Below are positions 21,431 through 64,000 of a stretch of DNA of 64,000 nucleotides, piece after piece; the stretch's first letter is position 1; each line of letters opens with the position of its first letter. The notes beneath the pieces were generated by a model. That model did not search any database. It was given only the letters and a program-made list of their open reading frames with translations, and was not told the origin of the DNA. Position numbers and translations under genes: made by a program. This DNA comes from an uncultured Eubacteriales bacterium. Its GTDB lineage: Bacteria; Bacillota; JAAYKD01. The DNA lies in the NCBI GenBank assembly GCA_964425745.1, contig CAYRNW010000006.1, positions 1,499-65,498 of the forward strand, read 5' to 3'.

Positions 21431-24013
21431 ATGGATAAAGCATATCAATGGGTGCCATTTTATGAGGCACTCGCCGATAAATTGCTTACATACAGCGATA
21501 AACGGGATGAACTCTTTGCTTTAATGAAAAAGCTTTCATCGGAGCAGCCGCTGATGAAATATCTCCACTTCGAGCGTGAAGACTGGTGGGAACCCCGCCA
21601 TCATCAAATCGATCCGTTTTCTGTGATTGGAGTTATGAATCGCGGAACAACAGATGCAAACCGTATTGTCTTAGCCAAGGTACTCGCAAACGCATTTGAC
21701 ATACAGATTCCTTCGCCTACGCAGTTTGCGGGTATACCTGTACTCAATAACATGAACTCATTTTTTAATGGAACAAATGAATTATGGGAGCTGTTTTGCC
21801 TTGCAATAAAATCCGCTGAAACCGGTGAGTTTTCAGACAAATTTAAAAAAGCATTCGATGACGCCATTGCAGTATCTGGAAATGGACTGGCTTATATTAC
21901 GATGGGCTTGTATTGGATTCGGCCACATGTTTTTATGCCTCTTGATGGCAATTCGCGTGCTTATATTTCTACACATTTCGGTGTATCTGCACCAAGCGGA
22001 AACTGTAGTGGTGAAGAATACGTAACTTTTTTGAATACACTCAAAACGAAAATCCATGAGCAGGCGCCTGACCTGACATTACCTGAAATTTCGTATACTG
22101 CTTGGACGAAGAAGGATGCCAATTCGCTCGACGGTACAAGCACAACTACCGCAGTCGTTGATGAGAAACGGCAGCGGGCGGCATTTATACAATGGTATAC
22201 GAATAATGTTGGTTCGTCTAATTCTGCTAATACCATCGCGGTTGCTATCGGTAAAGCACGGCTTAAAAGCGGACGAGCAGTGTTTGCTATTGCTGATTTT
22301 AATGAACTTGATTCTGCGATCAAGAGCAGCGGCCTTGAAGGGTATTTTCAAGCCAGCGGTGGCGATTACTCAAAGATGGATATAGTTTTTGACATTGATC
22401 CAACTACCCAACGTGATGACTTGAAAAGTGGAATCAAGCACTATCTCAGTTTTCTTAAAAGCATAGGAGAATTAAGTTCATCAAGCGGAACAATTGTCCC
22501 GCCGAATATAGCATCACGGCAGACTGGCGGGGCAAAAATGGCAAAAAACATAATTCTCTATGGTACTCCTGGAACAGGAAAAACCTATAGTACAGTGCAG
22601 TATGCTGTTGCCATTATTGAGGAGAAGTCGATCGCGGAGGTAAAATCTGAAGATTACGGAGAAGTATTCAATCGTTACTTAAAATATAAAGATGACGGAC
22701 TGGTCGCTTTTACCACATTTCACCAATCGTTTGGCTACGAAGAATTTATTGAGGGTATACGCCCGGTCGTGTCTTCGGAGGAAAAAGCAGAATCGGTACG
22801 CGAAATTGAATACGAAGTACATGATGGAATTTTCAAGGCATTTTGCGATAAAGCTGGAACACCTATTGGCGGCGGAACAAGTGTAGACTTAGGAATTGGT
22901 AAAAGCCCTACCGTCTGGAAGGTTTCACTTGAAGGTACAGGTGACAATCCTACAAGAGCCGAATGTATGGAGAATAATCATATCCGCATCGGATGGGACA
23001 GCTATGGCGAAACCATATCTGATGCTACAGATTACAGCAAGGATGGAGGCAGAACCGTTCTCAACGCATTTTACAACAGGATGCAAATCGGCGATATTGT
23101 TATGTCTTGTTATTCCAGCAAAACAATAGACGCGATTGGTGTTATTACTGGCGAACCAGAATGGCACGATGAGTATCAGAACTACAAACGGTTGCGTAAT
23201 GTGAAATGGCTTGTAAAGGGTATTAACGAAGATATCGTCGATTTCAATGCCGGAAAAGCTATGACGCTTTCATCTGTATACAAGTTATCAGTTTCAGTGT
23301 CAGATGCATTGCAAATACTTAGGAAAGTGAAGCCAAGCCTATTCACACAAAAGGTAAAAATTCCAAACCGTGTATTTATCATTGATGAGATCAATCGAGG
23401 GAATATCTCAAAAATATTTGGTGAATTAATTACCCTAATCGAGCCGTCAAAGCGCATAGGAGCAAGCGAACAGCTACGCGCTCTTTTGCCATACTCGGGC
23501 CAAAATTTTGGTGTGCCCGATAACGTCTACATCATTGGCACCATGAACACCGCCGACCGCTCTATCGCGATGATAGACACCGCGTTGCGCCGTAGATTTG
23601 AATTTATCGAGATGCAACCTGATTCTGCTACGCTTAAAGATGTTCTTGTTGACGGTATAGATATTGCTGAGATGCTCGACACCATCAACAAGCGTATAAC
23701 CGTATTGCTCGACCGTGAGCACACCATAGGACATTCCTATTTACTGCCGCTTAAAACAGACCCGACGATTGAAAATCTTGCGGCGATTTTTGAAAACAGA
23801 ATAATCCCGCTTTTGCAAGAGTACTTCTACGACGATTACGAGAAGATTCAGCTTGTATTGGGTGACAATCAGAAGCCGGATGATAGCACTCGCTTTATCG
23901 TGAAAAAGACAGATGCTGTTAAGCTGTTTGGAAACGCGGACGTTGATTTCCCGGAGTATTATGAGGTTAACAGCGAAGCTTTCATGAGGATTGATGCCTA
24001 TGCGTTCCTGTAA
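21431..24013 (+). CDS. mcrB: McrB-family GTPase (type IV restriction) with long N-terminal extension including a PUA/EVE-like modified-base reader domain
   Basis: AAA+/GTPase motifs NIILYGTPGTGKTY, VFIIDEINRGNISKIFGE and IIGTMNTADRSIAMIDTALRRRFEF. The upstream segment VWKVSL..IRIGW..FYNRMQIGDIVMSCYS..IDAIGVITGEP is EVE-like. Confidence 0.85.
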   Translation: MDKAYQWVPFYEALADKLLTYSDKRDELFALMKKLSSEQPLMKYLHFEREDWWEPRHHQIDPFSVIGVMNRGTTDANRIVLAKVLANAFDIQIPSPTQFAGIPVLNNMNSFFNGTNELWELFCLAIKSAETGEFSDKFKKAFDDAIAVSGNGLAYITMGLYWIRPHVFMPLDGNSRAYISTHFGVSAPSGNCSGEEYVTFLNTLKTKIHEQAPDLTLPEISYTAWTKKDANSLDGTSTTTAVVDEKRQRAAFIQWYTNNVGSSNSANTIAVAIGKARLKSGRAVFAIADFNELDSAIKSSGLEGYFQASGGDYSKMDIVFDIDPTTQRDDLKSGIKHYLSFLKSIGELSSSSGTIVPPNIASRQTGGAKMAKNIILYGTPGTGKTYSTVQYAVAIIEEKSIAEVKSEDYGEVFNRYLKYKDDGLVAFTTFHQSFGYEEFIEGIRPVVSSEEKAESVREIEYEVHDGIFKAFCDKAGTPIGGGTSVDLGIGKSPTVWKVSLEGTGDNPTRAECMENNHIRIGWDSYGETISDATDYSKDGGRTVLNAFYNRMQIGDIVMSCYSSKTIDAIGVITGEPEWHDEYQNYKRLRNVKWLVKGINEDIVDFNAGKAMTLSSVYKLSVSVSDALQILRKVKPSLFTQKVKIPNRVFIIDEINRGNISKIFGELITLIEPSKRIGASEQLRALLPYSGQNFGVPDNVYIIGTMNTADRSIAMIDTALRRRFEFIEMQPDSATLKDVLVDGIDIAEMLDTINKRITVLLDREHTIGHSYLLPLKTDPTIENLAAIFENRIIPLLQEYFYDDYEKIQLVLGDNQKPDDSTRFIVKKTDAVKLFGNADVDFPEYYEVNSEAFMRIDAYAFL

Positions 24014-25277
24014 TAAAACCTTCACTATAACAGAATACGGTGGGTTTACGCGCGGCATAGCGTCTTACGGTTATCAGGCATTGCCGGAAAAAACATTTGA
24101 TGCGCTTGAAGCTTTTATCCTCGCCAACAATACTGATACGGGAACCGAGGCAGTCGAGCTGCTGTCTCTTTCTGTTCGCCGAGGCATTGGCAAGATTATC
24201 ACCGCCAGAAATTACGTCGGGCTGATAACGATGGCTGACGGTACTGTCATAGAGATTCTCCCTAAAGTTATGGGCGGCGATATTACCGAGGAAGAGACGA
24301 AGCGAATTTTTCTCGAGATGCTAAAAACGCTAAAGGACGTGACATTTAAAGACTTCAATGTTTCAAATCTTCATGCTGACAACCTGAGCCTTCTCGATAT
24401 TTTTATAAAAATGTTTCTCGACGAGGTCACTATTCTAACAAAGCAAGGAATAAAAGCGGCATATACACCCGTCGAAGCAAATGAACGGTTCTATAAAGGG
24501 AAGCTGCTGGCTTCACAGAATATTAAATATAATCTGGTTAACAAGGAACGATTTTTTGTTCGCTACGACGATTTCAATATAAACAGACCGGAGAACCGTC
24601 TGATCAAGTCCACACTACGTTTCCTGCGCAATACTTCAAATGACGGGCGTAACCGACAGAACGCAACCCGATTAATAAATTTCTTTGATGGTGTGGAATA
24701 TTCCAAAAACTATGATTTGGACTTTTCAAAGTGTATTGTCGACCGCAGCATGAGCCACTACGACAAGGCTCTTTCGTGGTGTCGCGTTTTCTTGCGAGGA
24801 AATAGCTTCACCGCCTTTGCAGGAAGCGAGGTTGCTCTTGCTCTTCTTTTTCCAATGGAAAAGGTGTTCGAGAGTTTTGTTGCTGCGAAGTTTCGCAAGC
24901 ACATTGGTAGTGGTGTTACCTTGCGGACACAGGATGCCAGATACAGTCTGTTTGATAGTCCGGCCCGAGCTTTTTCCCTTCGTCCTGACATTGTGTTAGA
25001 ATTTGACGGCCGTACAGTAGTTCTGGATACCAAATGGAAGCTGCTCTCAGACAATGCCAGAAACAGCGGTATTTCACAAACTGATATGTACCAGATGTAT
25101 GCTTACGGCAAAAAGTATGAAGCAGACAAAATTGTCTTGCTGTATCCCTATTCCGATGCTGTGCGCAAAACTGATATCAGGTATGCCTCAGATGACAATG
25201 TAAAGGTCGATGTTACCTTCATTGACCTTAAGAATGCGGATAACAGTATTTCGAAACTATTAGGGGAGGTGTGCTAA
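24000..25277 (+). CDS. mcrC: McrC-family nuclease subunit (PD-(D/E)xK)
   Basis: RPDIVLEFDGRTVVLDTKWK catalytic motif. Overlaps the mcrB 3' end. Start chosen at the ATG 9 nt after GAGGA (alternatives 23991 and 23994). Confidence 0.8.
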   Translation: MRSCNKTFTITEYGGFTRGIASYGYQALPEKTFDALEAFILANNTDTGTEAVELLSLSVRRGIGKIITARNYVGLITMADGTVIEILPKVMGGDITEEETKRIFLEMLKTLKDVTFKDFNVSNLHADNLSLLDIFIKMFLDEVTILTKQGIKAAYTPVEANERFYKGKLLASQNIKYNLVNKERFFVRYDDFNINRPENRLIKSTLRFLRNTSNDGRNRQNATRLINFFDGVEYSKNYDLDFSKCIVDRSMSHYDKALSWCRVFLRGNSFTAFAGSEVALALLFPMEKVFESFVAAKFRKHIGSGVTLRTQDARYSLFDSPARAFSLRPDIVLEFDGRTVVLDTKWKLLSDNARNSGISQTDMYQMYAYGKKYEADKIVLLYPYSDAVRKTDIRYASDDNVKVDVTFIDLKNADNSISKLLGEVC

Positions 25278-26308
25278 TGCCATTTACCATCGTCCGTCAG
25301 GACATAACAAAAATGAAAGTTGACGCTATAGTCAACGCTGCCAACACCGACCTGCAAATGGGCGGTGGGGTTTGTGGAGCTATCTTCAAAGCGGCGGGAG
25401 CGGCACAGCTTCAAGCTGCCTGTGATAAACTCTCCCCGATTAAAACGGGTGAGGCGGTTATTACATCAGGATTCGACCTGCCCGCTAAGTTTGTTATTCA
25501 CGCGGCAGGCCCCGTTTATAGATATCAGAATACCGAGCAGAGTGAAAAACTACTACGTTCCGCATACATGGAGTCGCTCCGGCTTGCCATCGAAAACAAC
25601 TGTGAAAGTATTGCGTTCCCATTGATTTCAAGCGGGATTTACGGATACCCAAAAGACGAAGCCCTTCAAGTGGCTACTGCTGCAATTCAAGATTTTCTCA
25701 TCAACAACGATATTGATATAACACTTGTAGTGTTTGATAAATCGGCATTTACTGTAAGCCGCGAGCTGCTCGGTGAAGTCGAAAGCTACATAGATGAGCA
25801 TTACGTTGATATACACCAAATAAAGCGTCGGAAGCTGCTTGATGTAGAACGCCAAGCCATATCCGAAGCTGATGAGCGTGCTAGTATACTCAACGAGCCT
25901 ATTCTTGAAGATATGCTCGCTCCTATTGGCGCTCCTGCCCCGCTTGATGATTTAGTTGGCAATCTTGATGAGCCATTCTCTCAGATGCTCCTGCGTCTGA
26001 TTGATGCCAAAGGAATGACGGATGTTGAAGTATACAAACGTGCCAACCTTGACCGAAAATTATTCTCTAAGATCAGAAGCAACAAAGGATATATGCCAAG
26101 CAAGCGCACAGCTATTGCTCTTGCTGTAGCGCTGAAGTTATCTCTCGACGAAACCGACGACCTCTTGGAACGAGCGGGCTATGCACTATCTCACGCCGTC
26201 AAATTCGATGTTATTGTGGAGTACTTCATCGCAAACGGTAAGTACGATGTTTTTGCGATCAATGAAGTGCTGTTTGAATACGACCAGCCGCTGTTGGGAG
26301 GGTGCTGA
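25277..26308 (+). CDS. Macro-domain (ADP-ribose binding/processing) protein fused to C-terminal XRE-like HTH domain
   Basis: Macro signature AIVNAANTDLQMGGGVCGAIF and ISSGIYGYP. C-terminal MTDVEVYKRANLDRKLFSKIRSN..SKRTAIALAVALKLSLDETDDLLERAGYAL is HTH_XRE-like. TAATG overlap with the mcrC stop. Confidence 0.75.
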   Translation: MPFTIVRQDITKMKVDAIVNAANTDLQMGGGVCGAIFKAAGAAQLQAACDKLSPIKTGEAVITSGFDLPAKFVIHAAGPVYRYQNTEQSEKLLRSAYMESLRLAIENNCESIAFPLISSGIYGYPKDEALQVATAAIQDFLINNDIDITLVVFDKSAFTVSRELLGEVESYIDEHYVDIHQIKRRKLLDVERQAISEADERASILNEPILEDMLAPIGAPAPLDDLVGNLDEPFSQMLLRLIDAKGMTDVEVYKRANLDRKLFSKIRSNKGYMPSKRTAIALAVALKLSLDETDDLLERAGYALSHAVKFDVIVEYFIANGKYDVFAINEVLFEYDQPLLGGC

Positions 26309-26310
26309 TT

Positions 26311-26766
26311 ATGGATTATGTTTATGAAATAGATTCACTAATTCAAAAAGCTACATTAGCAATTGGTAAACCAATTTTTAAGGACAAGTATGAAATCGTT
26401 GATAGAGGTTTACCGCATATTCCACCTACTCGATTGCCTGATGGGAAGATGGCAATCTACATGTTTTTGCTCGGTGACGAATTTCTAAAAATCGGAAAAG
26501 CTAATTATAGAAGTAATGCAAGATTCTGCAGTCAACATTATGGTTTGAATGCACCATCAACACTTGCAAAATCACTGCTTTCGGATAGTGAGATGCGCAG
26601 CTTAAACATTACTTCTTCAAATATAAAAAATTGGATTAAAACGAATTGCCGACGAATCGACATAATTATTGATGCAGACTTAGGTGTTTTTGCTTTGGAA
26701 TTGATTGAGGGGATAATGCATTATAAATATGAACCCAGATATGAGGGTTTTGCATCTCAAAGGTAA
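26311..26766 (+). CDS. Small GIY-YIG superfamily (T5orf172/MUG113-like) protein
   Basis: AIYMF-(10)-LKIGKA-NYRSNARF..QHYG resembles GIY..YIG..R of the T5orf172 domain. GGGAGGG SD 8 nt before ATG 26311. Begins 3 nt after the macro-HTH stop. Confidence 0.5.
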   Translation: MDYVYEIDSLIQKATLAIGKPIFKDKYEIVDRGLPHIPPTRLPDGKMAIYMFLLGDEFLKIGKANYRSNARFCSQHYGLNAPSTLAKSLLSDSEMRSLNITSSNIKNWIKTNCRRIDIIIDADLGVFALELIEGIMHYKYEPRYEGFASQR

Positions 26767-26769
26767 TTT

Positions 26770-26786
26770 GTCGCTTCTGAAGCGAC
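26770..26786 (+). promoter_or_regulatory. Perfect hairpin GTCGCTTC-t-GAAGCGAC between GIY-YIG gene and vWA gene (weak terminator/processing site, no U-tract)
   Basis: 8-bp inverted repeat read directly. No T-run follows. Confidence 0.3.
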
Positions 26787-26845
26787 CGCCGGTCTCAAGT
26801 AAAGTAGTATTCTAAGATTACAATAAATCTTAGGAGGCTACCAAA

Positions 26846-27499
26846 ATGAAAAAGGGATTAACTGAACTGGTATTCATACTCGACAAAAGTGGCTCAATGA
26901 GCGGACTGGAAGCTGACACTATTGGTGGTTACAATTCAATGCTCGCAAAGCAGAAGGCAGTAGATGGTGAGTGCTACATTACAACGGTGTTGTTTGATAA
27001 CAACTATGAGCTACTCCATGACCGTATTGACATTAAAGCAGTCAGCCCGATTACTGACAAAGAATATCAGGTTGGCGGATCGACAGCACTTCTTGATGCA
27101 ATCGGCAGAACGATTCACAAAATTGGTAACGCTCAAAAGCACACTGCCGAAGATTACCGCGCCGAAAAGGTAATGTTTGTAATTATCACAGATGGCGAGG
27201 AAAACTCTAGTCGTGAATATACTGCCGAAAAGATCAAAGCACAGATTGAGCGGCAAAAAGAAAAGTATGGTTGGGAGTTTATCTTCCTTGGGGCTAATAT
27301 CGATGCGGTTCAGACCGCCGGGAGGTATGGAATTGCTCCTGACAGGGCAATTGACTATCTAGCTGATAGCGAAGGTACGGAACTGAACTTTAAGGTAATG
27401 GCAAGTGCTGTGGCGACATTTCGCGAGTCGGGAACGGTTGACGAGACTTGCTTTGAGGAAATCCGCAAGGATGTGAAGCGTCGAGGAGGTCGTAAATAA
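26846..27499 (+). CDS. von Willebrand factor type A (vWA) domain protein
   Basis: MIDAS motif VFILDKSGSMSG at the N-terminus. 217 aa. TAGGAGG SD. Confidence 0.8.
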   Translation: MKKGLTELVFILDKSGSMSGLEADTIGGYNSMLAKQKAVDGECYITTVLFDNNYELLHDRIDIKAVSPITDKEYQVGGSTALLDAIGRTIHKIGNAQKHTAEDYRAEKVMFVIITDGEENSSREYTAEKIKAQIERQKEKYGWEFIFLGANIDAVQTAGRYGIAPDRAIDYLADSEGTELNFKVMASAVATFRESGTVDETCFEEIRKDVKRRGGRK

Positions 27500-28350
27500 T
27501 GCTCGGAGCGATTATAGGAGATATCGTAGGCTCGGTCTACGAATGGCATAACATTAAAACAAAAGACTTCCCGCTGTTCCGCGACGACTGCTTTTTCACG
27601 GATGACACCGTGATGACCATTGCTACAGCAGACGCTCTAATGAGCGGCGTTAAAGCCGACGATTTCATTAATGCCTATAAAAAGTGGGGGCGATTCTACC
27701 CAGATGCCGGGTACGGTGGTCGCTTCGGCAGTTGGATACATTCTAATGACCGTAAACCCTACAACTCTTGGGGTAATGGTTCGGCGATGAGAGTATCACC
27801 TTGCGCTTGGGTGATGAATTGCGGATTCTATGGGCGTACAGGTTGTTGGCCATCAAACGGTTGGGAATGTGTAACAAAATCTGCTGAGGTGACGCATAAC
27901 CACCCTGAAGGAGTCAAAGGCGCACAAGCTACCGCAGTAGCGATATTTTTGAGCCGGTTCTACGCCGGAGGTCACGCCTTCGATTATTGCCAGCCGTGGT
28001 CGGTTGAAGAATTGAAAGATGAAATAAAAAAACTGATAGAATCTAATTTTGGATATGATCTATCCCGGACGCTTGACGAAATTCGTCCAATTTACCGCTT
28101 CAATGAAAGCTGTCAGGATACGGTACCACAGGCGATTATTGCTTTCCTTGAAAGTATGGACTTTGAGGATGCAATCCGAAATGCTATCTCCCTCGGAGGT
28201 GACAGCGACACGCTTGCTGCTATTACCGGTAGCATTGCAGAAGCCGCCTATGGTGTGCCAGATTGGATAAGGGACAAGGCTTTGAGTTATCTGGACGCAC
28301 CGTTGAGAGATGTCTATAATCGGTGGACATCATACATAGAGAACAATTAA
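27499..28350 (+). CDS. ADP-ribosylglycohydrolase (ARH/DraG family)
   Basis: N-terminal GAIIGDIVGSVYEW, GNGSAMRVSP, and C-terminal GGDSDTLAAITGSIAEAAYG, all ARH family hallmarks. TAATG overlap with the vWA gene. Confidence 0.85.
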   Translation: MLGAIIGDIVGSVYEWHNIKTKDFPLFRDDCFFTDDTVMTIATADALMSGVKADDFINAYKKWGRFYPDAGYGGRFGSWIHSNDRKPYNSWGNGSAMRVSPCAWVMNCGFYGRTGCWPSNGWECVTKSAEVTHNHPEGVKGAQATAVAIFLSRFYAGGHAFDYCQPWSVEELKDEIKKLIESNFGYDLSRTLDEIRPIYRFNESCQDTVPQAIIAFLESMDFEDAIRNAISLGGDSDTLAAITGSIAEAAYGVPDWIRDKALSYLDAPLRDVYNRWTSYIENN

Positions 28351-34754: not shown

Positions 34755-35207
34755 TTATTCAATTTCAATTTTGCGGTTGGAAACAGTTTGGGTTTCTTTG
34801 GGAACCGAGATGAAGAGTACACCTTCTTCCAATTTGGCTTTAATGTCGCTGGTCTTGACATTGGCTAAACGGATACTGCGGCTCATAGAACCATAGCGGC
34901 GTTCGCGGTGGATAAAGTTCTTTTCGTCTTTATTCACTTCTTCGTTCCGGCGGACAACAATGCAGAGGCTGTCGTTTTCCATACCTACTTCAATTTCTTC
35001 TTTTTTCACACCCGGTAACTCTGCCTCAATGCGGTACTCGGAATCGGTCTCTTCAATGTCAATTTTGAAGGTATCACTTACCAAGCTTCGGCCTGACAGC
35101 AGATTATCGCTGAAAAAGTCGTCAAGCATGTTGTAAAAATCATCAAAACTTGAACTTGAGCGTGCGAGACCGGTGTTCCTTCTGTTAAAGGGAATCAGTC
35201 CTGACAT
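34755..35207 (-). CDS. Hsp20/alpha-crystallin family small heat-shock protein
   Basis: Alpha-crystallin domain FKIDIEETDSEYRIEAELPGVKKEEIEV..GVLFISVPK. AAGGAG SD 9 nt before ATG 35207 (the ORF-track start at 35342 has no SD). Confidence 0.85.
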   Translation of the reverse strand: MSGLIPFNRRNTGLARSSSSFDDFYNMLDDFFSDNLLSGRSLVSDTFKIDIEETDSEYRIEAELPGVKKEEIEVGMENDSLCIVVRRNEEVNKDEKNFIHRERRYGSMSRSIRLANVKTSDIKAKLEEGVLFISVPKETQTVSNRKIEIE

Positions 35208-35360
35208 GATCAACAACTCCTTTTTGTGTTTTTTTGTTAGCACTCTCTCTTGACGAGTGCTAACTATTTTATACCACTGGATGGCTTTCTTGTCAAGAGA
35301 GTTCACAAAAACTTCAAAATTTGCCATTCGGCAAAATCTCAACCAATTGGGCCTTCCATT

Positions 35361-36908
35361 TTATTCTATAATCACACCGGACTTGAATTCCACAGTATAT
35401 TTGTCCTCATAAACAATAACCTTCTCAATTAAATGCCGGACGATCCCATCGTCATAGTTAATCAAGAAAGAAGTTTGTTGCTGCATAAAATTACTCATAT
35501 CGGAAATGCGTTTCTTCAAATCTTCTTGCCTCATATTATTTAGCTCTGCCTTTTGCTTTTCTTCCTTCAGCCTTGCAATCTCATCAGCAACATCATCATA
35601 ATCTGCTTTGGAGTTCACCCGTTTCACGAGCTTAGCCTGAAGAATCTCTAATTGATTAGCAACTTCTGTTAGATCGGGGCTTTGCTCTTCTTGTAAGGCT
35701 TTCTGTATATTTTCCTGCAAGATCTTAAGATAGTCATTCTTCTCGCACAACACCTTGTTAATCGCTTTCACTAGAGTCTCCTCAAGATTTGGTTCACTCA
35801 CTGTTCTTGCATCGCAGAATACCCCGGTATTTTCAAGCCGACTTACACATCGCCAGACAACTGACTTTTTGCCATGGTTGTTCCAATGAACGCGTCTAAA
35901 GACCTCGCCACAATTTCCACAAATGATCTTGTTCGCTAAGGTGTGATTGCTGCTGAATTTACGATTCTGGCCATTAGGACTGGTGTGAATGATCCGACGC
36001 CTAATCAATTCCTCTTGTACTCGCATGAAGATTTCACGCGGGATAATGGCTTCATGGCTATTTTCTACATAATACTGAGGAACGATACCGTGGTTTTTCA
36101 CTCTAGTTTTATTTAAAAAATCTGTGGTATAAGTCTTTTGCAAAAGGGCATCACCGATATACTTCTCATTTCTTAAGATCTGATTAATGTTACCTGTATG
36201 CCACTTGGTACGACCCGAACCGTTCTTGATGCCATCCGCCATCAGACCTCGAGCGATTTTAAGAAGACTATTACCTTCGAGGTATTCTCTATAGATGCGC
36301 TTTACGGTTTCTGCTTCTTCTGGAACAATCACTAAGCGCTTGTTCTCATCTTTGGTGTAACCGAGAAACCACTTGCAGTTCACCTGAATCTCACCTTGCT
36401 GGTAGCGATATTGCAAACCCATTTTCACATTCTGACTTAAGGATTGACTTTCTTGCTGGGCCAGGGAAGCCATAATGGTAAGCATGACTTCACCTTTAGA
36501 ATCCATGGAGTTTATGTTCTCTTTCTCAAAGAAAACCGGAATACTTTTTTCTTTCAACTGGCGGATAAACTTTAGACAATCCAATGTGTTTCGGGCAAAT
36601 CGGCTGATTGACTTGGTAATGACCATGTCAATATTCCCAGCCATACACTCGTCAATCATGCGGTTAAACTCTTCACGCTTTTTGGTGTTGGTACCGGAAA
36701 TACCGTCATCAGCGAAGATACCGGCCAATTCCCAATCTGGGTGTCCTGTAATATAAGCTGTATAGTGATCTATTTGGGCTTCATAACTGGTTGCTTGTTC
36801 CTCGCTATCGGTAGAAACTCGGCAATAAGCTGCTACTCTTAGTCTTGGCTTTTCTTCACCTTTGACCTTTCGGGTGTGTTTCCTTGCGGGGATAAGGGTT
36901 ACATTCAT
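35361..36908 (-). CDS. Large serine recombinase (resolvase catalytic domain + recombinase domain + zinc ribbon)
   Basis: [16 protein letters not shown] catalytic Ser region. Recombinase domain. C-terminal C..C...C..C region and coiled coil. AAAGGAAG SD 8 nt before ATG 36908. Confidence 0.85.
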
Positions 36909-36913
36909 TCCCG

Positions 36914-37324
36914 TCACTTCCTTTCGATTAAACTATAAGCATACTCTGCTTGTTGAAATGGGTCGTCAAAATGCTTTAGACCTTCGTTCATTCGGAAGGA
37001 GGTAGGGAAGACGACTTCTTTTTTATTTTTGAGGGACTTAGTTCTACCAAGTTTCAAAGCGCGCCGTTCTCGTTCTTCCTGAACTTTCATGAACAATTCC
37101 TCATCAATAATCGGTGGGTAGAAATCATCACCCAGATATCGTTTGTTCTGAAGAAACAAGCCAACTGCAGAATGAGTTGCATTCATTTCCGCTTTTTTCG
37201 CAGCTGAAGATAAGGAGTCTCCAGATAAGTAGCAAATAAAAAGCATCCGAACCTGTGCGGCAGTGCTCTCTTCAATTACCGCTCTCGCATTCTCAATCTT
37301 ATACCCATAAGGAATGTAACTCAT
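36914..37324 (-). CDS. Recombinase-domain-only fragment or partner (serine recombinase middle domain, lacks catalytic N-terminal domain)
   Basis: [55 protein letters not shown] matches the Recombinase (PF07508-like) domain. TAATG overlap with the upstream recombinase. Confidence 0.55.
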
Positions 37325-38895
37325 TACTCCACCAACCTTTCTCTCAGAGTCAGACCGCACTTTAACTCAAATCCGATTTCGAACCTAGAGTAAACATGAA
37401 TCTTAGCTACGAATTGTTCGAAAAGGTCAGCATCAAAACGCTCTAACATGGATGCTTTAACCGTATATTTGATTAAGGCCAGCAAAGCATTGATGCTTTT
37501 GTGCTCGCTGTTCAGATAGTAAGCGGTTGATTCTTTCTGACGTTCTAATCGGCTGGCTTCCTGTAACAGCTCATTATTGCCTTTATTGAAGGCTGCAGTT
37601 TCTAGATAACCCTTACTTGTAAGAGCAAGCAATGTTTCACGCTGCTTCTTATTTTCATCCAGCTTTTTCTCAAGATCTCGTAAGCTAGCCTTCTCATCTT
37701 TGGAGTTCATACCTCGAAGGCTCAATAGAAGCGGTTTCAGAACAGATGTATAGCCGAAGATGAGCTTATTCATCATGACAATGAAGGTATATTCAATGTG
37801 TGTTTCCGGGATGAATTTTATAGAACATAGATTGGCATTTGTGATGTGCGTAGAACAGCACCAAGCAATCATACCTTCGCCCTTGGTATGAATTCGTCGC
37901 TTGAATTTTGCTCCGCATTCAGCACAGAGGATTTTTCCGGAAAAGGCATATCGATTCGAATATTTGGCCGACTTCATCTCGGAATTTTTCTCTAAACGGT
38001 GCTGGTTTATCAATGATTGTACAGCATCGAAGTCTTCCTGACTGATAATTGCCGGATGATGATCCTCAATCAAAAAGAAATCTCGTTCACCATAGTTGAT
38101 ATGCCGTTTAAAGCGGTCATCGGTATAGGTCTTTTGTAATAACGCTTTTCCCGTATATCGTTCGTTCTTCAGAATTCCTAGAACGGCGGATGCCATCCAT
38201 TCTCCACCTTTTTTACTGGGTATTTCTAGCCGATTAAGCTCTTTCACGATCTTACCCGCTCCCAGTCCAGACAAGCTTTTTGAGAAGATGAAACGCACAA
38301 TTTCTGCTTGGATTTCGTTGATCATCAGCTGGCCATCAACCGAATCGTAGCCCAGAGGTGGACTCGATATTTTATAGGTTCCATTCCGGAATCTGCTCTT
38401 AACCGACCATTTGCTATTTTCAGCGATCGAGACCGACTCGCTTTCGGCCAAACCGGAAAGAATAGATAGCATCAATTCACTATCCAGGGAACCTGTATGA
38501 ATGTTTTCTTTCTCGAAGAGAATATAAACCCCAAGCCCAATGAGCTTTCTCACCAATTCCAAGCAATCCGTGGTATTTCTGGAGAAACGGCTGATAGACT
38601 TTGTAAGAATCAGATCGATTTGTTTGTTCTCACAATCAGTGATCATTCGTAAAAAATCCGGTCGCTTTTCTTTTTTTGTTCCTGTGATCCCTCGATCATA
38701 ATAGATACCAGCGAAAGTCCAATTAGGATTCTGTTGTATGGTTGACTCATAGTGCTTCATCTGAGCATCTAGGCTTTCAAGTTGATCATCTTCATCGGTC
38801 GAAACCCGACAATATGCAGCGACTCTTAGTTTTGTAGGTTCGGTGAGGTTCTCAGCACTCGGTTCGAGCTTAGTTACTTTTCTCAATCTTTTCAC
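37324..38895 (-). CDS. Large serine recombinase
   Basis: [16 protein letters not shown]. Recombinase domain. Zinc ribbon CAECGAKF..WCCSTH. Coiled-coil C-terminus. Start uncertain (GTG 38895 or TTG 38886). Confidence 0.85.
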   Translation of the reverse strand: MKRLRKVTKLEPSAENLTEPTKLRVAAYCRVSTDEDDQLESLDAQMKHYESTIQQNPNWTFAGIYYDRGITGTKKEKRPDFLRMITDCENKQIDLILTKSISRFSRNTTDCLELVRKLIGLGVYILFEKENIHTGSLDSELMLSILSGLAESESVSIAENSKWSVKSRFRNGTYKISSPPLGYDSVDGQLMINEIQAEIVRFIFSKSLSGLGAGKIVKELNRLEIPSKKGGEWMASAVLGILKNERYTGKALLQKTYTDDRFKRHINYGERDFFLIEDHHPAIISQEDFDAVQSLINQHRLEKNSEMKSAKYSNRYAFSGKILCAECGAKFKRRIHTKGEGMIAWCCSTHITNANLCSIKFIPETHIEYTFIVMMNKLIFGYTSVLKPLLLSLRGMNSKDEKASLRDLEKKLDENKKQRETLLALTSKGYLETAAFNKGNNELLQEASRLERQKESTAYYLNSEHKSINALLALIKYTVKASMLERFDADLFEQFVAKIHVYSRFEIGFELKCGLTLRERLVE

Positions 38896-38937
38896 CCCCT
38901 TGTTAGTGTGTCATATTACCTCTAATGCAAAGTTATA

Positions 38938-39159
38938 TCAACTTATATTTGGCATAATTTTGGCCAGAAGGGGAGAGAAAGATTCTCGATTTAGCAGGGT
39001 AATTTTCCAGTATTCATCTTTAGTGATGAGGTCGTTTTTCAGTAATGAATCAAGGAGCTGTTGTGCCCGATGGTAATCTACCTCGTTCTGTAATTGTTCA
39101 TGCGTGATTAGACCAGATTCTTGATGATCGATCGTGTTGATGGGTTGTTTATTCTCCAT
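38938..39159 (-). CDS. Small hypothetical protein upstream of the recombinase array (candidate recombination directionality factor or regulator)
   Basis: 73 aa from the ATG preceded by GGAGGG-7 nt. It follows the conserved 41-nt motif copy on the minus strand. Confidence 0.3.
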   Translation of the reverse strand: MENKQPINTIDHQESGLITHEQLQNEVDYHRAQQLLDSLLKNDLITKDEYWKITLLNRESFSPLLAKIMPNIS

Positions 39160-39228: not shown

Positions 39229-39268
39229 AAAGAGACCCATCAAGCAAAAATAATTGCCGGATGGGTTT
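39225..39268 (-). terminator. Rho-independent terminator after endolysin gene
   Basis: Stem ACCCATC/GATGGGT with 18-nt loop, followed on the minus strand by U7 (A7 at 39225-39231 on plus). Confidence 0.6.
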
Positions 39269-39277
39269 CAACATATA

Positions 39278-39970
39278 CTATTCACTTTTTATATAGGCCT
39301 CAGTATAACCGGCTGCTTTTAGCCTAGATAGCATTGTCTCTGCATTCGCTTTATCGCTGAACGCACCCACCTGAACTCGGTATACTTTCTTCGTGTCGGT
39401 AGCATTTACTGCAGAAAGCCTTTTCGAAACATCAGACCGGAATGCATCCATACTCGTACCTTGGATGGCAAACCAATGCTTAGGATCTGCATGATTGCTG
39501 GCTATTCTTTTCATAAAGCCTTCATAGTGACCAAGGATATCCTTTTCAGTTAAGCCATACATCTTGCAAAGATACACACAAAGTTCTAATGCTTCAGTAT
39601 AGATTTTATTGAAATAGTCAGAATCCATCATTCCGTCTTCGCAAATCTCAACCCCGATGTGAGAGTCATTGGCTTTACCACCGGCATGCCAGCCTTTTTG
39701 ATTCCAAGGAAGTGTCTGATAGGTTGCTACACTTCCATTTTTCAGCTTGCCAATGAAAGCATGCGCACAAACTTCTATTCCTCCTGGTTTGGCTTGATTC
39801 CAGTGATTACCATAAAGATTCTGTCCTAGCAAGCCGTCATCCGGAGCGATGTAGCGATTCAAACATGGATTATTTGCTCCGGTCGAATGGATCATAATGC
39901 CCTTCACGGTAATCTTCTGACCAGCCTTATAACAATCATTCTCTGTCAAAAAGTACTGCTTGAGGTTCAT
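39278..39970 (-). CDS. Endolysin: N-acetylmuramoyl-L-alanine amidase (Amidase_2/PGRP) with C-terminal SPOR domain
   Basis: Amidase_2 region HSTGANNP..HAGG.. and a C-terminal SPOR-like KVYRVQVGAFSDKANAETMLSRLKAAGY. Confidence 0.85.
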   Translation of the reverse strand: MNLKQYFLTENDCYKAGQKITVKGIMIHSTGANNPCLNRYIAPDDGLLGQNLYGNHWNQAKPGGIEVCAHAFIGKLKNGSVATYQTLPWNQKGWHAGGKANDSHIGVEICEDGMMDSDYFNKIYTEALELCVYLCKMYGLTEKDILGHYEGFMKRIASNHADPKHWFAIQGTSMDAFRSDVSKRLSAVNATDTKKVYRVQVGAFSDKANAETMLSRLKAAGYTEAYIKSE

Positions 39971-40734: not shown

Positions 40735-41649
40735 TTATTGCTTAGAAATCGTGACTGAACCATGACCTGTCCCGATTCCTTCTGTTAATATGATATTTGC
40801 ACCGGTTGCATACGAGCCTCCACCTGCCCCTGCGTATGCAGAGCAGCTTCCACCCGCCCCGTTCGCACCATATGAGTTGTATAAAGCACCACCTGAGTAA
40901 CCTCCACCATGACCGGCTCCCCCCCAGTAAATACCGTCGCCACAGCTACCTCCACCAAAACCTCCCGCACCCGCATCTCCACTTGGAGAATTGCATCCAA
41001 TCAAGCCAGATGGATAGCCACCAGCACCAACACCGTTATATTGACTATTCATACCGTTGCCACTAAACCCACCCGCTCCAGGACACCCTCTTACATCGGG
41101 ATAGTTGGAATATGGCTTAGCATTGATGTTAATAGAAGCATCGCTATTGGCAGTACGATAGTTTTGATTTTGTCTCGCTCCGCCACCTCCACCCGCGATC
41201 ACCAAAGGAGCCCCGTTGCTCACTCGGACTACAAACGTGCCACCTCCACCACCTCCAAAATAAGGTGCGGAGACACCTGCTTGTCCAACCACGAGGATGA
41301 TGAATTCCCCCAGTGTTAGAAGGATATCTGCTTGTGCCTGAACGCCTCTGCCATAATATGAAGGAGGATAAGCAAGACTAGCACCTCCAGCTGCTCCTAG
41401 AACTGTGATGCGGTAAACCCCAGTTTCCGGCACGGTCCATTTCTGGTACCCTTGATACGCTCCTTGACTCAAGAATGCTGTATTCTGTGCCCAAGCAACA
41501 CCAGTATAGGCGGCTTGCATTTGAGCTAAGGTGGGGCCTGTTCTCCCTGACACACCACAATTCGTGAAGACATGACTTGTAAAAGGATACAGCCCTGAGC
41601 TGGGAGGAGTGAAACGTCTCGCTCCATTGAAGCTAGATAGCAAGCTCAT
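40735..41649 (-). CDS. Glycine-rich phage tail-fibre-like protein
   Basis: About 40% Gly in the C-terminal two thirds (GGGGGTF.., GAGGFGGGSCGDGIYWGGAGHGGGYSGG). AAAGGAG SD 7 nt before ATG 41649. Confidence 0.6.
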   Translation of the reverse strand: MSLLSSFNGARRFTPPSSGLYPFTSHVFTNCGVSGRTGPTLAQMQAAYTGVAWAQNTAFLSQGAYQGYQKWTVPETGVYRITVLGAAGGASLAYPPSYYGRGVQAQADILLTLGEFIILVVGQAGVSAPYFGGGGGGTFVVRVSNGAPLVIAGGGGGARQNQNYRTANSDASININAKPYSNYPDVRGCPGAGGFSGNGMNSQYNGVGAGGYPSGLIGCNSPSGDAGAGGFGGGSCGDGIYWGGAGHGGGYSGGALYNSYGANGAGGSCSAYAGAGGGSYATGANIILTEGIGTGHGSVTISKQ

Positions 41650-41663
41650 GTGCTCACTCCTTT

Positions 41664-42116
41664 TTAAGCAAATTTTGTCATCGTACCAAGCACTGTGTAA
41701 GTAGACGCCGCTGTCTTGATAATCGAGAAAGTAAAAATGTTCAATGCGTTTTGGGCTAGGGTTGGAGCCGAACCGCCTGCCCATTTCACCGTTTGAGACA
41801 CTCCATTGATTCGAAAAGCAGCAAAGTTATAGGGAGAGGCACCTAGAGTAATGATAGCGGTAATCGTCTTGATTTCACCGATCGCTAATAGATCATCGAT
41901 AGGTCCATACACCATATTAGGGGAGATATCGAAATGAGCATTCGCGGCTGCTGTTTTGTAATAGACCGTTCCTGCTCCCGTATCACAGGGGATTACGATG
42001 TTGGATGAAAAGGCCGAGGAATCAATGTTGATTTTTTCATTGACCGCTGACAAAGTAAGCATTTGTTCAGCGGTCAATCTTTTACTAATCATTCCAGGAG
42101 ATAGATCTTTTGGCAT
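41664..42116 (-). CDS. Hypothetical phage tail protein
   Basis: GGAGGG SD 5 nt before ATG 42116. Lies between the tail fibre and the glycine-rich protein. Confidence 0.5.
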   Translation of the reverse strand: MPKDLSPGMISKRLTAEQMLTLSAVNEKINIDSSAFSSNIVIPCDTGAGTVYYKTAAANAHFDISPNMVYGPIDDLLAIGEIKTITAIITLGASPYNFAAFRINGVSQTVKWAGGSAPTLAQNALNIFTFSIIKTAASTYTVLGTMTKFA

Positions 42117-55216: not shown

Positions 55217-55690
55217 TTGGACATTACTCAAAGGAAAATCACAAAGATTGCTCGAGAAGTTAGTAAGTTTACTACACGGACTTTGAGGGCGGAAGGAATT
55301 GGGACTTCTGAATTCGACTTTATCCATGCTGTTCGTAAGAATCCAGGCATTACTCAAGCAGAAATCTGCAAAAAACTCGGAATCGATAAAAGTGCAGTGG
55401 CACGTCAAACAGCGAGCCTCGAAGCAAAAGGGTATCTCATCAGAAAGATCAATCCGGCCGATGGTCGGAGCCAACTCTTATATGCTACGCTGAAATCCGA
55501 AAGTCTAAAAACATCAAAAGCACATGTTGAAGCTCAATTTTATGAATGGCTGTTAGCTGGATTAGGCCGGAATGAACAAGAGGAATTTGTAAAGTTACTT
55601 GATATTCTATATCAACGGTGTAAAAGTGAGAGCAAAGCAGATTTTGTGACGATTAGCGCGCTTGTGATGGAGGCGAATCAAAATGAATAA
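55217..55690 (+). CDS. MarR family transcriptional regulator
   Basis: Winged HTH ITQAEICKKLGIDKSAVARQTASLEAKGYLIRKINPADGR. TTG start 6 nt after GGAGGG. Confidence 0.8.
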   Translation: MDITQRKITKIAREVSKFTTRTLRAEGIGTSEFDFIHAVRKNPGITQAEICKKLGIDKSAVARQTASLEAKGYLIRKINPADGRSQLLYATLKSESLKTSKAHVEAQFYEWLLAGLGRNEQEEFVKLLDILYQRCKSESKADFVTISALVMEANQNE

Positions 55691-59622: not shown

Positions 59623-60157
59623 TACTCGTCCGCTCATTCACCCGGTTCCCATTGTTGTTGTTGGAGTTCTAGATGGTATAGAAGGTTCAAGGGTTAATTT
59701 TACAACGATTGGTGATATAGCAATTGCTGGTTTAAATCCTCCATTACTAATGTTAAGTTTGCACGAAAGACATTTATCTAGGCAAATAATCGATGATAAG
59801 AAAAAGCTTACAGTACATATTCCAGAAGTTAAATGGTTAGATCAAATTGATTACTGCGGAGTTCATTCGGGGCATGATATGGATAAATCGAGTGTATTCC
59901 CCTTTCGGGTGTACCGAGGTTTTGTTGTCATTGACGATTTCCCTATCAACTTGCTTTGCAGGGTGAGAGAGAGAATTCAAGTTGACAAACGAGTAATATT
60001 TGTTGTGGAAGTGGATGAGATGCTGTTGAGATCAGATGTCACTATAGAAAATCTTGGTTCGTTAAACACGATACTTTATGGATTAAACAATCGGTATTAT
60101 TCTAGCGGAAAAGAAATAGGGGAAGGCTACTATACAGCAAAAAAAGGAAGCAAATAG
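59615..60157 (+). CDS. Flavin reductase-like FMN-binding domain protein
   Basis: PVPIVVVGVLDGIEGSRVNFTTIGDIAIAGLNPPLLMLSL matches the flavin reductase domain pattern. Confidence 0.6.
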   Translation: MNNTRPLIHPVPIVVVGVLDGIEGSRVNFTTIGDIAIAGLNPPLLMLSLHERHLSRQIIDDKKKLTVHIPEVKWLDQIDYCGVHSGHDMDKSSVFPFRVYRGFVVIDDFPINLLCRVRERIQVDKRVIFVVEVDEMLLRSDVTIENLGSLNTILYGLNNRYYSSGKEIGEGYYTAKKGSK

Positions 60158-63900: not shown

Positions 63901-64000
63901 AATTACCTCCATATTGCATAATCTATCCACTTCGAGTATAATATAACTGAGTCAAGGTCTCCTCCTCATTGACTCACCAGACCCAAAGGGCCCGAAAAGG

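What the first reader, a model, noticed from the sequence alone, without database searches (positions are those of the whole stretch)
35361..38895. Tandem array of two full large serine recombinases flanking a recombinase-domain-only ORF
Two ~520-aa large serine recombinases share 40-50% identity in their catalytic regions, indicating paralogues. Between them, overlapping both, is a 136-aa ORF that matches only the central recombinase domain ([16 protein letters not shown]...RYLGD) and has no catalytic Ser domain or zinc ribbon. This could be a decayed third recombinase, or a trans-acting accessory subunit (cf. multi-recombinase ccr-type systems). The array sits between the phage lysis genes and the cargo, where an att site is expected.
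Basis: partly seen in the sequence, partly recalled or inferred. Interest (0 to 1): 0.55.

Follow-up and report, generated by a model that had tools for sequence, protein, structure and literature searches.

The report
Three-part phage serine integrase module
At the end of a prophage sit two full serine integrases with a small, catalytically dead relative between them; this is a widespread, conserved phage integration cassette whose small member is a working gene of untested function, not debris.

Summary
Three co-oriented minus-strand genes lie at 35361-38895: LSR-A (520 aa), a 136-aa protein with only the recombinase domain, and LSR-B (515 aa).

The middle ORF is neither a frameshift artefact nor a pseudogene.
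- It matches phrog_7701 end to end.
- It belongs to a large family of stand-alone ~140-aa proteins: 790 clusters (50 % identity) at E<=1e-10.
- It is under purifying selection (median Ka/Ks 0.15).
- It occupies the same slot, SHOCT_2 / LSR-A / small / LSR-B, in every complete locus of 147 IMG/VR loci examined, and in annotated phages of Streptococcus, Erysipelothrix, Gardnerella and Terrisporobacter, gut 'Heliusvirales' phages and a Dehalococcoides prophage.

Rare 254-298-aa forms in the same slot keep the zinc ribbon and C-tail. The middle gene is therefore a serine-integrase paralogue that lost its catalytic domain and usually its zinc ribbon. It keeps a DNA-binding-type fold and an almost invariant acidic helix, [15 protein letters not shown].

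The three genes share a conserved promoter and abut or overlap. The prophage/host junction is inferred about 35 bp beyond the LSR-B stop, upstream of host hsp20.

My best reading is a heteromeric integrase with a non-catalytic accessory subunit. This is inferred and untested. I rate it a new variant of a known kind, of moderate interest.

The parts
38938..39159 (-). SHOCT_2-domain small protein (73 aa from the ATG at 39159; the ORF is open to 39174). It is the conserved first gene of the four-gene module and lies upstream of the integrase promoter. Its role is unknown; it is a candidate directionality factor.
   Evidence: Pfam SHOCT_2 at 2.3e-16 and phrog_2996. A homologue is found immediately upstream of LSR-A in nearly all related loci and in annotated phages.
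39232..39269 (-). Terminator-like hairpin after the endolysin gene (16-nt arms, 6-nt loop, then a run of T). It separates the late/lysis operon from the integration module.
   Evidence: Inverted repeat I1, and the sequence read.
38913..38941 (-). Promoter-like site for the integrase operon: -35 TTGATA, 17-nt spacer, -10 TAATAT. A ribosome-binding site (GGGGGTG) and the TTG start of LSR-A follow.
   Evidence: Consensus scan. The whole ~50-nt gap is nearly invariant across about 60 divergent loci, including the TTG start codon.
37324..38886 (-). LSR-A: a full large serine recombinase of 520 aa. It has the catalytic Ser motif YCRVSTD, a recombinase domain, a Cys4-type zinc ribbon, a coiled-coil region and a C-tail.
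   Evidence: Pfam PF00239, PF07508 and PF13408 and phrog_95. The catalytic motifs are conserved in 78 orthologues. It is the position-specific orthologue of upstream LSRs elsewhere, scoring 450-784 bits against them versus 243-325 bits for those same proteins against LSR-B.
36914..37324 (-). Middle protein of 136 aa: a stand-alone recombinase domain (residues 1-95), a disordered linker, and a conserved acidic C-terminal helix ([16 protein letters not shown]). It has no catalytic domain, no alpha-E helix and no zinc ribbon.
   Evidence: Pfam PF07508 only. phrog_7701 positions 1-135 of 137, E 1e-52. 389 homologues, with the 120 listed all 134-148 aa long. Alignment A2 shows the invariant motif. 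AlphaFold model pLDDT 82.5; best PDB match 4KIS recombinase domain, rmsd 2.2 A. Median Ka/Ks 0.15. 790 representative clusters at E<=1e-10.
35361..36908 (-). LSR-B: a full large serine recombinase of 515 aa from the ATG at 36908. It is the most conserved member of the module and the last gene of the prophage.
   Evidence: Pfam and phrog_95. Catalytic motifs are conserved in 51 orthologues. It is the position-specific orthologue of downstream LSRs (593-1039 bits in complete loci). Its recombinase domain is 84 % identical on average, against 66 % for LSR-A.
35313..35342 (.). Inferred prophage/host junction (attL or attR). It is an imperfect inverted repeat, TTGAGATTTTGCC-GAAT-GGCAAATTTTGAA, centred at 35327/35328, 19 bp after the LSR-B stop. 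Host DNA begins at about 35322.
   Evidence: Inverted repeat with 13-nt arms, 77 % complementary, 4-nt spacer. Similarity to the unoccupied site in a related genome (L105, Hsp20 89 % identical) starts at AAATTTTGAAG. This rests on one empty site; the other junction lies outside the window.

Best explanation
This is the integration/excision cassette of a temperate tailed phage. It has four conserved genes: SHOCT_2, LSR-A, a small non-catalytic paralogue, and LSR-B.

Expression. LSR-A, the small protein and LSR-B are made together from one conserved promoter. LSR-A uses a weak TTG start, and the reading frames abut or overlap.

Proposed mechanism (inferred, not shown).
- The two catalytically competent integrases act together as a heteromeric recombinase. 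They recombine the phage site with a host site at the 3' end of a PAS-GGDEF-HD-GYP gene, just upstream of hsp20. The resulting junction lies about 35 bp beyond the LSR-B stop.
- The small protein cannot cut DNA, because it has no catalytic domain and no alpha-E helix.
- It keeps the helix-turn-helix-like core of the recombinase domain, including the recognition-helix position, so it may bind DNA.
- It also keeps a near-invariant acidic helix descended from the coiled-coil region, so it may contact the integrases.
- I therefore propose that it is a constitutive, non-catalytic accessory subunit that helps assemble or restrain the LSR-A/LSR-B complex on its sites.
- Because it is always co-expressed with the enzymes, it is unlikely to be the switch that turns integration into excision. 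SHOCT_2, which lies upstream of the promoter, is the better candidate for that switch.

What is shown: gene structure, domain content, conservation, selection, evolutionary origin, the promoter, and the approximate junction.

What is inferred: heteromer formation, DNA binding, the protein contact, and the roles in directionality.
For: 1. The module SHOCT_2 / LSR-A / small / LSR-B keeps the same order and strand in every complete locus among 80 + 67 IMG/VR loci; the exceptions are contig-truncated or frameshifted assemblies plus one divergent locus. The first scan alone confirmed 444 loci. The module also occurs in a Dehalococcoides prophage and in annotated phages of four genera plus gut 'Heliusvirales'.
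2. Orthology is position-specific. In complete loci, upstream LSRs score 450-784 bits to LSR-A against 243-325 to LSR-B. Downstream LSRs score 593-1039 bits to LSR-B against 248-288 to LSR-A.
3. Both LSRs keep all three Pfam domains and conserved catalytic motifs across orthologues.
4. The small gene is under purifying selection: median Ka/Ks 0.15 over 591 pairs, with the C-terminal 17 residues changing least. Twenty-six columns are invariant across the 40 aligned homologues, nine of them within the C-terminal motif.
5. Fold: residues 1-95 superpose on the DNA-bound recombinase domain of the A118-type integrase 4KIS (rmsd 2.2 A over 96 columns). The invariant His51 aligns with the recognition-helix Tyr (PMC3783163 describes helix alpha-H contacts by Tyr207/Asn208). 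The domain's net charge is +1.8, against +0.5 and +0.7 for the LSRs' own domains.
6. Origin: 254-298-aa catalytic-domain-less forms with a zinc ribbon, the same motif and an LSR C-tail occupy the same slot. They align to LSR-A and LSR-B from the recombinase domain to the C-tail at 99.5-99.6 % probability, with the motif falling in the coiled-coil region.
7. Co-expression: a conserved promoter, ribosome-binding site and TTG start; the TAATG overlap; a conserved terminator after LSR-B in relatives.
8. One 711-aa protein fuses the small protein to LSR-B.
9. Junction: an empty site in a related genome and an imperfect inverted repeat at the breakpoint.
Against: - There is no experiment of any kind. 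No paper in the searchable library tests this cassette or mentions the small protein's role.
- Heteromeric action is an analogy with CcrA/CcrB, whose properties I recall from memory; the primary paper was not available.
- The small protein lacks two of the four beta-strands of the recombinase domain and the minor-groove linker, so DNA binding may be weak or lost.
- Distance-matrix correlations do not single out a partner domain.
- The fusion protein is a single case and could be a frameshift artefact.
Confidence: 0.55

Rival explanations
1. The small protein is the recombination directionality factor. Its coiled-coil-derived helix binds an LSR and permits attL x attR excision, as known factors do for single-integrase phages.
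For: Its C-terminal helix descends from the coiled-coil region, which controls directionality in serine integrases (PMC3783163). That helix is the most conserved part of the protein. Known directionality factors are small and structurally diverse (abstracts listed).
Against: It shares a promoter with both integrases and its frame abuts or overlaps theirs. It would therefore be present during integration as well, which is the opposite of how a switch should be expressed. A separately placed conserved small gene, SHOCT_2, is available for that role.
Confidence: 0.2
2. The small protein is a transcriptional autoregulator. It uses its helix-turn-helix-like core to bind the conserved promoter or leader of the integrase operon and keep integrase levels low in the lysogen.
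For: The SHOCT_2 to LSR-A gap is unusually conserved for non-coding DNA, and in most relatives it has a near-palindrome, GTCACACTGAC, at the expected transcription start. The small protein's recognition-helix region is fairly conserved. That would suit a conserved DNA target better than variable att sites.
Against: The palindrome is degenerate in this window and its closest relative (GACACACTAAC) and varies in its left half elsewhere. This model does not explain the near-invariant acidic C-terminal helix. Nor does it explain why a regulator would be kept strictly between two integrases across phyla.
Confidence: 0.12
3. The middle ORF is a decaying remnant of a third recombinase, or an artefact of a sequencing frameshift in a neighbouring gene.
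For: It derives from a serine recombinase and lacks most of its domains.
Against: The reading frame is intact, 134-148 aa long, in the 120 listed homologues and in every complete IMG/VR locus examined. Median Ka/Ks is 0.15. It has an invariant C-terminal motif and its own ATG overlapping the upstream stop. The sequence is identical in many independent assemblies.
Confidence: 0.02
4. It is a DNA invertase used for host-range switching. This is what the PHROG label implies and what the paper on the gut 'Heliusvirales' phages suggests for a common 'DNA invertase' cluster.
For: phrog_7701 is labelled 'DNA invertase'. PMC11283538 suggests host-range switching for a common invertase cluster.
Against: The protein has no Resolvase catalytic domain and no nucleophilic serine motif, so it cannot invert DNA. 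It always sits between two integrases at the prophage end, not next to tail-fibre genes.
Confidence: 0.01

Closest known systems
CcrA/CcrB of staphylococcal SCCmec
   Same: Two adjacent, co-transcribed, paralogous large serine recombinases at the end of a mobile element, believed to act together. The window's LSRs have CcrB as their best NCBIfam match. Iannelli et al. drew the same analogy for tandem resolvases of Streptococcus phage phi1207.3 (PMC4260502).
   Different: Scores are far below the Ccr equivalog cut-offs (133-138 bits against 900). The element is a phage, not an SCC. The target is not rlmH. There is a third, non-catalytic paralogue between the two enzymes and a SHOCT_2 gene in front, neither of which I know from ccr complexes.
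Triplets of serine integrases in Streptococcus integrative conjugative elements (Ambroset et al. 2016, PMC4701971)
   Same: Three adjacent, same-strand, serine-recombinase-derived genes at an element's end. The proteins cluster by position (external, middle, internal), which implies an ancestral three-gene module. I find the same position-specific pattern here.
   Different: That paper states that all its serine integrases carry the catalytic Resolvase domain. Here the middle member has none. The carrier is a phage, not a conjugative element. I could not fetch the ICE proteins to test direct homology of the middle members.
Two-recombinase module of Streptococcus phage phi1207.3 (orf55-orf56-orf57)
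   Same: Located after the lysis genes at the prophage end. A small SHOCT-like ORF comes first, followed by two overlapping serine recombinases. The first recombinase has a TTG start.
   Different: There is no middle gene. orf56 is a short (412 aa) recombinase. Both proteins are only 32-37 % identical to the LSR-A and LSR-B of a Streptococcus phage that carries the full three-gene set, so this is a separate branch.
Single large serine integrases with a separate directionality factor (A118/LI, Bxb1, phiC31, SPbeta)
   Same: The same three-domain enzyme architecture. The small protein's fold matches the recombinase domain seen bound to attP DNA in 4KIS.
   Different: Those systems use one integrase acting as a homotetramer plus an unrelated small cofactor. 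Here there are two different integrases, and the extra small protein derives from the integrase itself.

Membership tests
Large serine recombinase (LSR-A and LSR-B) | N-terminal resolvase-type catalytic domain with the nucleophilic serine motif | tested here: met
   PF00239 at 6.5e-31 and 2.7e-34. The motif YCRVSTD is present in both, and its core R-V-S is invariant across the orthologues aligned.
Large serine recombinase (LSR-A and LSR-B) | Recombinase domain followed by a zinc-ribbon domain with four zinc ligands | tested here: met
   PF07508 and PF13408 match in both. Conserved Cys/His positions appear in the orthologue alignments.
Large serine recombinase (LSR-A and LSR-B) | Coiled-coil insertion in the zinc-ribbon domain | not tested
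   A poorly conserved stretch of about 85 residues follows the zinc ribbon (56-57 % mean identity), where the coiled coil is expected. No structure was predicted for the LSRs.
Large serine recombinase (LSR-A and LSR-B) | Catalyses attP x attB recombination | not testable with these tools
   Needs a recombination assay.
Serine recombinase / DNA invertase (the middle 136-aa protein) | Resolvase catalytic domain with nucleophilic serine | tested here: not met
   Only PF07508 matches. The protein begins at the first strand of the recombinase domain. It should not be filed as a recombinase or invertase.
phrog_7701 / stand-alone ~140-aa recombinase-domain family (the middle protein) | Full-length match to the family profile, including the C-terminal [15 protein letters not shown] motif | tested here: met
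   Positions 1-135 of 137, E 9.8e-53. The motif is present in the window copy. In the profile search nearly all of the top 150 hits are about 130-145 aa.
CcrA/CcrB (SCCmec cassette chromosome recombinases) | Score above the NCBIfam equivalog cut-off | tested here: not met
   CcrB: 133 and 138 bits against a cut-off of 900. CcrA: 80 and 68 bits against 700.
CcrA/CcrB (SCCmec cassette chromosome recombinases) | Integration at the 3' end of rlmH (orfX) | tested here: not met
   The junction lies between a PAS-GGDEF-HD-GYP gene and hsp20.
Streptococcus ICE 'triplet of serine integrases' | Three adjacent co-oriented serine-recombinase-family genes with position-specific clades | tested here: met
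Streptococcus ICE 'triplet of serine integrases' | Each member carries the Resolvase catalytic domain (as stated in PMC4701971) | tested here: not met
   The middle member lacks it.
Recombination directionality factor | Stimulates attL x attR and inhibits attP x attB by binding the integrase | not testable with these tools
   This is a functional definition only. The expression context argues against the small protein filling this role and leaves SHOCT_2 open.
XisF (fdxN element excision recombinase) | Score above the NCBIfam equivalog cut-off | tested here: not met
   123 and 101 bits against a cut-off of 375.

The most novel reading that the evidence does not exclude
The cassette is a three-protein serine-integrase machine. 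A catalytically dead paralogue, reduced to a DNA-binding domain plus a coiled-coil-derived peptide, acts as a built-in cofactor. It would programme an LSR-A/LSR-B heterotetramer, for example by capping or positioning the coiled coils so that only the correct pair of asymmetric sites synapses. That would be a cofactor class derived from the recombinase itself, distinct from all known directionality factors. It would be used by one of the most widespread temperate phage lineages of anaerobic and gut bacteria.
Probability: 0.25. Interest if true: 0.75.

Novelty: new variant of a known kind. Interest (0 to 1): 0.55.

Why it matters
- Large serine integrases are prized genome-engineering tools because one protein and two short sites suffice. 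A common natural system that needs two different integrases plus a non-catalytic paralogue would show a different way of specifying sites and direction. It could yield orthogonal enzymes that recognise asymmetric sites.
- The cassette is the integration module of many prophages, including resistance-carrying Streptococcus and Erysipelothrix phages and the gut 'Heliusvirales' phages. Its small member is currently labelled 'DNA invertase' or 'hypothetical'. That label has already led to a probably wrong functional suggestion of host-range switching.
- For annotation, the finding gives a clear rule. A ~140-aa recombinase-domain-only gene between two ~520-aa serine recombinases marks a prophage end and is a real gene.

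Tried and rejected
1. Frameshift or pseudogene reading of the middle ORF: rejected on conservation and Ka/Ks.
2. A metagenome scan for the host hsp20 promoter, to find an empty site, returned nothing. The collection does not even hold the identical JGI contig.
3. Looking up the neighbouring TetR gene gave only occupied sites or truncated contigs.
4. Walking to the other prophage end failed. Look-ups are limited to window proteins, and the reachable DNA stops inside the phage replication genes.
5. Contigs carrying the closest small-protein relative all break inside LSR-B.
6. The conserved inverted repeat after LSR-B in relatives (CAAGGCACTCTACG...CGTAGAGTGCCTTG) was considered as attP. I rejected it because the loop length varies from 8 to about 14 nt, there are G-U-type and compensatory changes, and a T-run follows. 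It behaves as a terminator.
7. k-mer enrichment downstream of LSR-B recovered only that terminator.
8. Correlating pairwise distances of the small protein with individual LSR domains gave uniformly high values (0.6-0.9) and no partner signal.
9. phi1207.3 was tested as a possible natural deletion of the small gene. It is a different, distant two-recombinase module, so it says nothing about dispensability.
10. An Rfam scan of the whole window found nothing.
11. The primary CcrA/CcrB paper (PMC3714108) is not held.
Full report
**What is there**

On the minus strand, reading 5' to 3', the window has the following features.
- An endolysin (Amidase_2 + SPOR, 39278-39970) followed by a terminator-like hairpin (39232-39269).
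- A 73-aa SHOCT_2 protein (38938-39159).
- A promoter-like site (38941-38913).
- LSR-A (37324-38886, 520 aa from TTG).
- A 136-aa protein (36914-37324).
- LSR-B (35361-36908, 515 aa).
- About 35 bp further on, host DNA beginning with the promoter of an hsp20 gene.

Both large proteins have the Resolvase, Recombinase and Zn_ribbon_recom domains. The middle one matches the Recombinase domain only. The two large proteins are 36 % identical over 404 aa. The stop of LSR-A and the start of the middle gene share a base (TAATG).

**The middle ORF is a real gene**

- It matches phrog_7701 over its whole length (positions 1-135 of 137, E 1e-52).
- A search of 5.8 billion proteins gave 389 homologues. 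The 120 listed are all 134-148 aa long.
- A profile search of 1.84 billion cluster representatives gave 790 hits at E<=1e-10. The top 150 are almost all about 130-145 aa and matched end to end.
- Across 77 distinct gene sequences the median Ka/Ks is 0.15 over 591 pairs. The last 17 residues change least.
- Forty aligned homologues share 26 invariant columns, nine of them within the C-terminal motif [16 protein letters not shown].
- The same protein, in the same locus, occurs in many independent metagenome assemblies.

Together these results exclude a frameshift artefact or a pseudogene.

**The cassette is a conserved four-gene unit**

- In 80 IMG/VR loci retrieved with the small protein (444 were confirmed in that scan), every complete locus has SHOCT_2, LSR-A, small, LSR-B in that order and strand. 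The same holds for 67 loci retrieved with the longer variant. Exceptions are truncated or frameshifted contigs plus one divergent locus.
- The same order is annotated in Terrisporobacter phage TPDSL_ph1, Erysipelothrix phage phi1605, Gardnerella phage vB_Gva_AB1, Streptococcus phages Javan630 and Javan102, and a gut phage classified in 'Ca. Heliusvirales'. It also occurs in a Dehalococcoides mccartyi prophage.
- Orthology is position-specific. In complete loci, upstream LSRs score 450-784 bits to the window's LSR-A but 243-325 to LSR-B. Downstream LSRs score 593-1039 to LSR-B but 248-288 to LSR-A.
- The duplication is therefore ancient and the module is inherited as a block.
- Both LSRs keep their catalytic motifs across orthologues.
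- LSR-B is the more conserved of the two. Its recombinase domain averages 84 % identity, against 66 % for LSR-A.

**What the small protein is**

- An AlphaFold model (pLDDT 82.5) has a confident domain at residues 1-95, a disordered linker, and a C-terminal helix at 122-131.
- The domain superposes on the recombinase domain of the A118-type integrase bound to attP DNA (4KIS; rmsd 2.2 A over 96 columns, 26 % identity).
- In the HMM alignment to that integrase, the invariant His51 aligns with the Tyr at the start of the stretch 'YNRYNNWLTN'. I take this stretch to be recognition helix alpha-H. PMC3783163 describes Tyr207 and Asn208 of alpha-H contacting bases.
- Compared with full LSRs, the small protein lacks the catalytic domain, alpha-E, the minor-groove linker, a roughly 29-residue beta-hairpin of the recombinase domain, and the zinc ribbon.
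- The net charge of its domain (+1.8) is no lower than that of the LSRs' own domains (+0.5 and +0.7). The C-terminal helix is acidic (-3.5).

**Where it came from**

- Rare family members of 254-298 aa carry the same N-terminal domain, then a Cys-rich zinc ribbon, then the same [13 protein letters not shown] motif, then an LSR-type C-tail. They have no catalytic domain.
- They occupy the same slot between LSR-A and LSR-B (L189-L196).
- Profile-profile comparison aligns them with LSR-A and LSR-B from the start of the recombinase domain to the C-tail (probability 99.5 % and 99.6 %). The motif falls in the coiled-coil region, most of which is deleted.
- The middle gene is thus a third LSR paralogue that lost its catalytic half. 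In most lineages it also lost its zinc ribbon and tail, and it kept a vestige of the coiled-coil region.
- One 711-aa protein fuses a divergent small protein to an LSR-B. This is a single case and could be an artefact.

**Expression signals**

- The roughly 50-nt gap between SHOCT_2 and LSR-A is almost invariant across about 60 divergent loci. It reads TTGATA, 17 nt, TAATAT, a short leader, AAGGAGGTGA and a TTG start.
- So the three recombinase-family genes form their own operon with a weak start codon. SHOCT_2 lies outside it, after a terminator that closes the lysis operon.
- In most relatives LSR-B is followed by a conserved hairpin with a variable loop, wobble and compensatory changes and a T-run. 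I read this as a terminator, not an att site.

**The junction**

- A related genome (L105, Hsp20 89 % identical) has an unoccupied site. There a PAS-GGDEF-HD-GYP gene ends, and 4 nt later the same hsp20 promoter begins (TTGACA, 17 nt, TATAAA, then the CIRCE operator TTAGCACTC-N9-GAGTGCTAA).
- Similarity between the window and that site starts at window position ~35322.
- An imperfect inverted repeat sits exactly there: 13-nt arms at 35313-35325 and 35330-35342, with a 4-nt spacer.
- I infer that the crossover lies at about 35323-35330.
- The other junction is beyond the window and could not be fetched, so attP and attB are not reconstructed.
- All contigs that carry the identical neighbouring TetR gene and reach the site have the prophage.

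**How it most likely works**

The following is inferred.
- LSR-A and LSR-B act together as a heteromeric integrase.
- The small protein is a constitutive non-catalytic accessory subunit. It may bind DNA through its retained domain and contact the enzymes through its conserved acidic helix.
- The argument against it being the directionality switch is that it is co-expressed with both enzymes.
- SHOCT_2 is separately placed and equally conserved. It is also present in front of the distinct two-recombinase module of phi1207.3. It is the better candidate for the switch.
- Rivals are a directionality factor (0.2), an autoregulator of the conserved promoter (0.12), a remnant or artefact (0.02), and an invertase (0.01).

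**Comparison with the literature**

- Tandem serine recombinases in phi1207.3 were likened to ccrAB and presumed to cooperate, without tests (PMC4260502).
- Streptococcus conjugative elements carry 'triplets of serine integrases' that cluster by position, but all of those are reported to have the catalytic domain (PMC4701971).
- The 'Heliusvirales' paper mentions a common 'DNA invertase' cluster and suggests host-range switching (PMC11283538). For the small protein that label cannot be right.
- I found no paper that discusses a catalytic-domain-less middle member or tests the cassette. The library lacks most subscription journals, so this absence is not proof.

**Verdict**

It is not ordinary in mechanism: it is a new variant of multi-recombinase systems, with a domesticated dead paralogue. 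Interest is moderate (0.55), because function is unproven but directly testable.

Noticed in passing
window 35237-35296 (minus strand): The host hsp20 gene (34755-35207) has a textbook promoter: TTGACA at 35296-35291, a 17-nt spacer, and TATAAA at 35273-35268. A perfect CIRCE operator, TTAGCACTC-N9-GAGTGCTAA, follows at 35263-35237. This implies HrcA control. The layout is conserved upstream of hsp20 in many related Clostridia genomes. The prophage sits only about 25 bp upstream of the -35 box.
   Followed up: partly
window 38886-38950 and loci L002-L091: The non-coding gap before LSR-A is nearly invariant across phages whose proteins are only about 50-65 % identical. The conserved elements include a TTG start codon and, in most, a near-palindrome GTCACACTGAC at the expected transcript start. 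This suggests tight control of integrase level by an unknown factor.
   Followed up: partly
proteins P0153, P0205, P0263 (loci L189-L196) and P0208: There are longer variants of the middle protein (254-298 aa: recombinase domain + zinc ribbon + motif + C-tail, no catalytic domain). There is also one 711-aa fusion of a small-protein homologue to an LSR-B. The variants form an evolutionary series from full recombinase to 137-aa stub.
   Followed up: partly
window 21431-28350 (plus strand): A block of defence-type genes sits next to a GGDEF gene: an McrB-like AAA protein (860 aa), McrC (PF10117), a Macro-domain protein, and an ADP-ribosylglycohydrolase. In other contigs of the same species it is absent or replaced (L093 and L098), so it looks like a strain-variable island.
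   Followed up: no
window 55217-56930 and 58771-60157 (plus strand): Two opposite-strand gene pairs are embedded among the phage packaging genes: MarR + MFS transporter, and an unknown 283-aa protein + flavin reductase. They look like cargo ('moron') genes. The phage also encodes a SAM synthetase and a ParB-N6/N4 methyltransferase fusion (61503-63930, Pfam).
   Followed up: no
locus L256 (Streptococcus phage phi1207.3, AY657002, 48752-51771): This resistance-carrying phage has a different branch of the system. A 53-aa SHOCT-like ORF is followed by a short 412-aa recombinase and a 521-aa recombinase, with no middle gene. Both recombinases are only 32-37 % identical to the LSR-A/LSR-B type.
   Followed up: yes
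loci L012, L021, L002 and others, 10-60 nt after LSR-B: A sequence-conserved terminator hairpin, CAAGGCACTCTACG-loop-CGTAGAGTGCCTTG, follows LSR-B in most relatives but not in this window. It shows compensatory and wobble substitutions. Such sequence conservation is unusual for a terminator stem.
   Followed up: partly
window 40735-41784 (minus strand): A 349-aa protein encoded upstream of the holin/lysin genes has long glycine-rich stretches (GGGGGTF, GAGGFGGG, GGAGHGGGYSGG). It is presumably a tail-fibre or receptor-binding component. I did not examine it.
   Followed up: no
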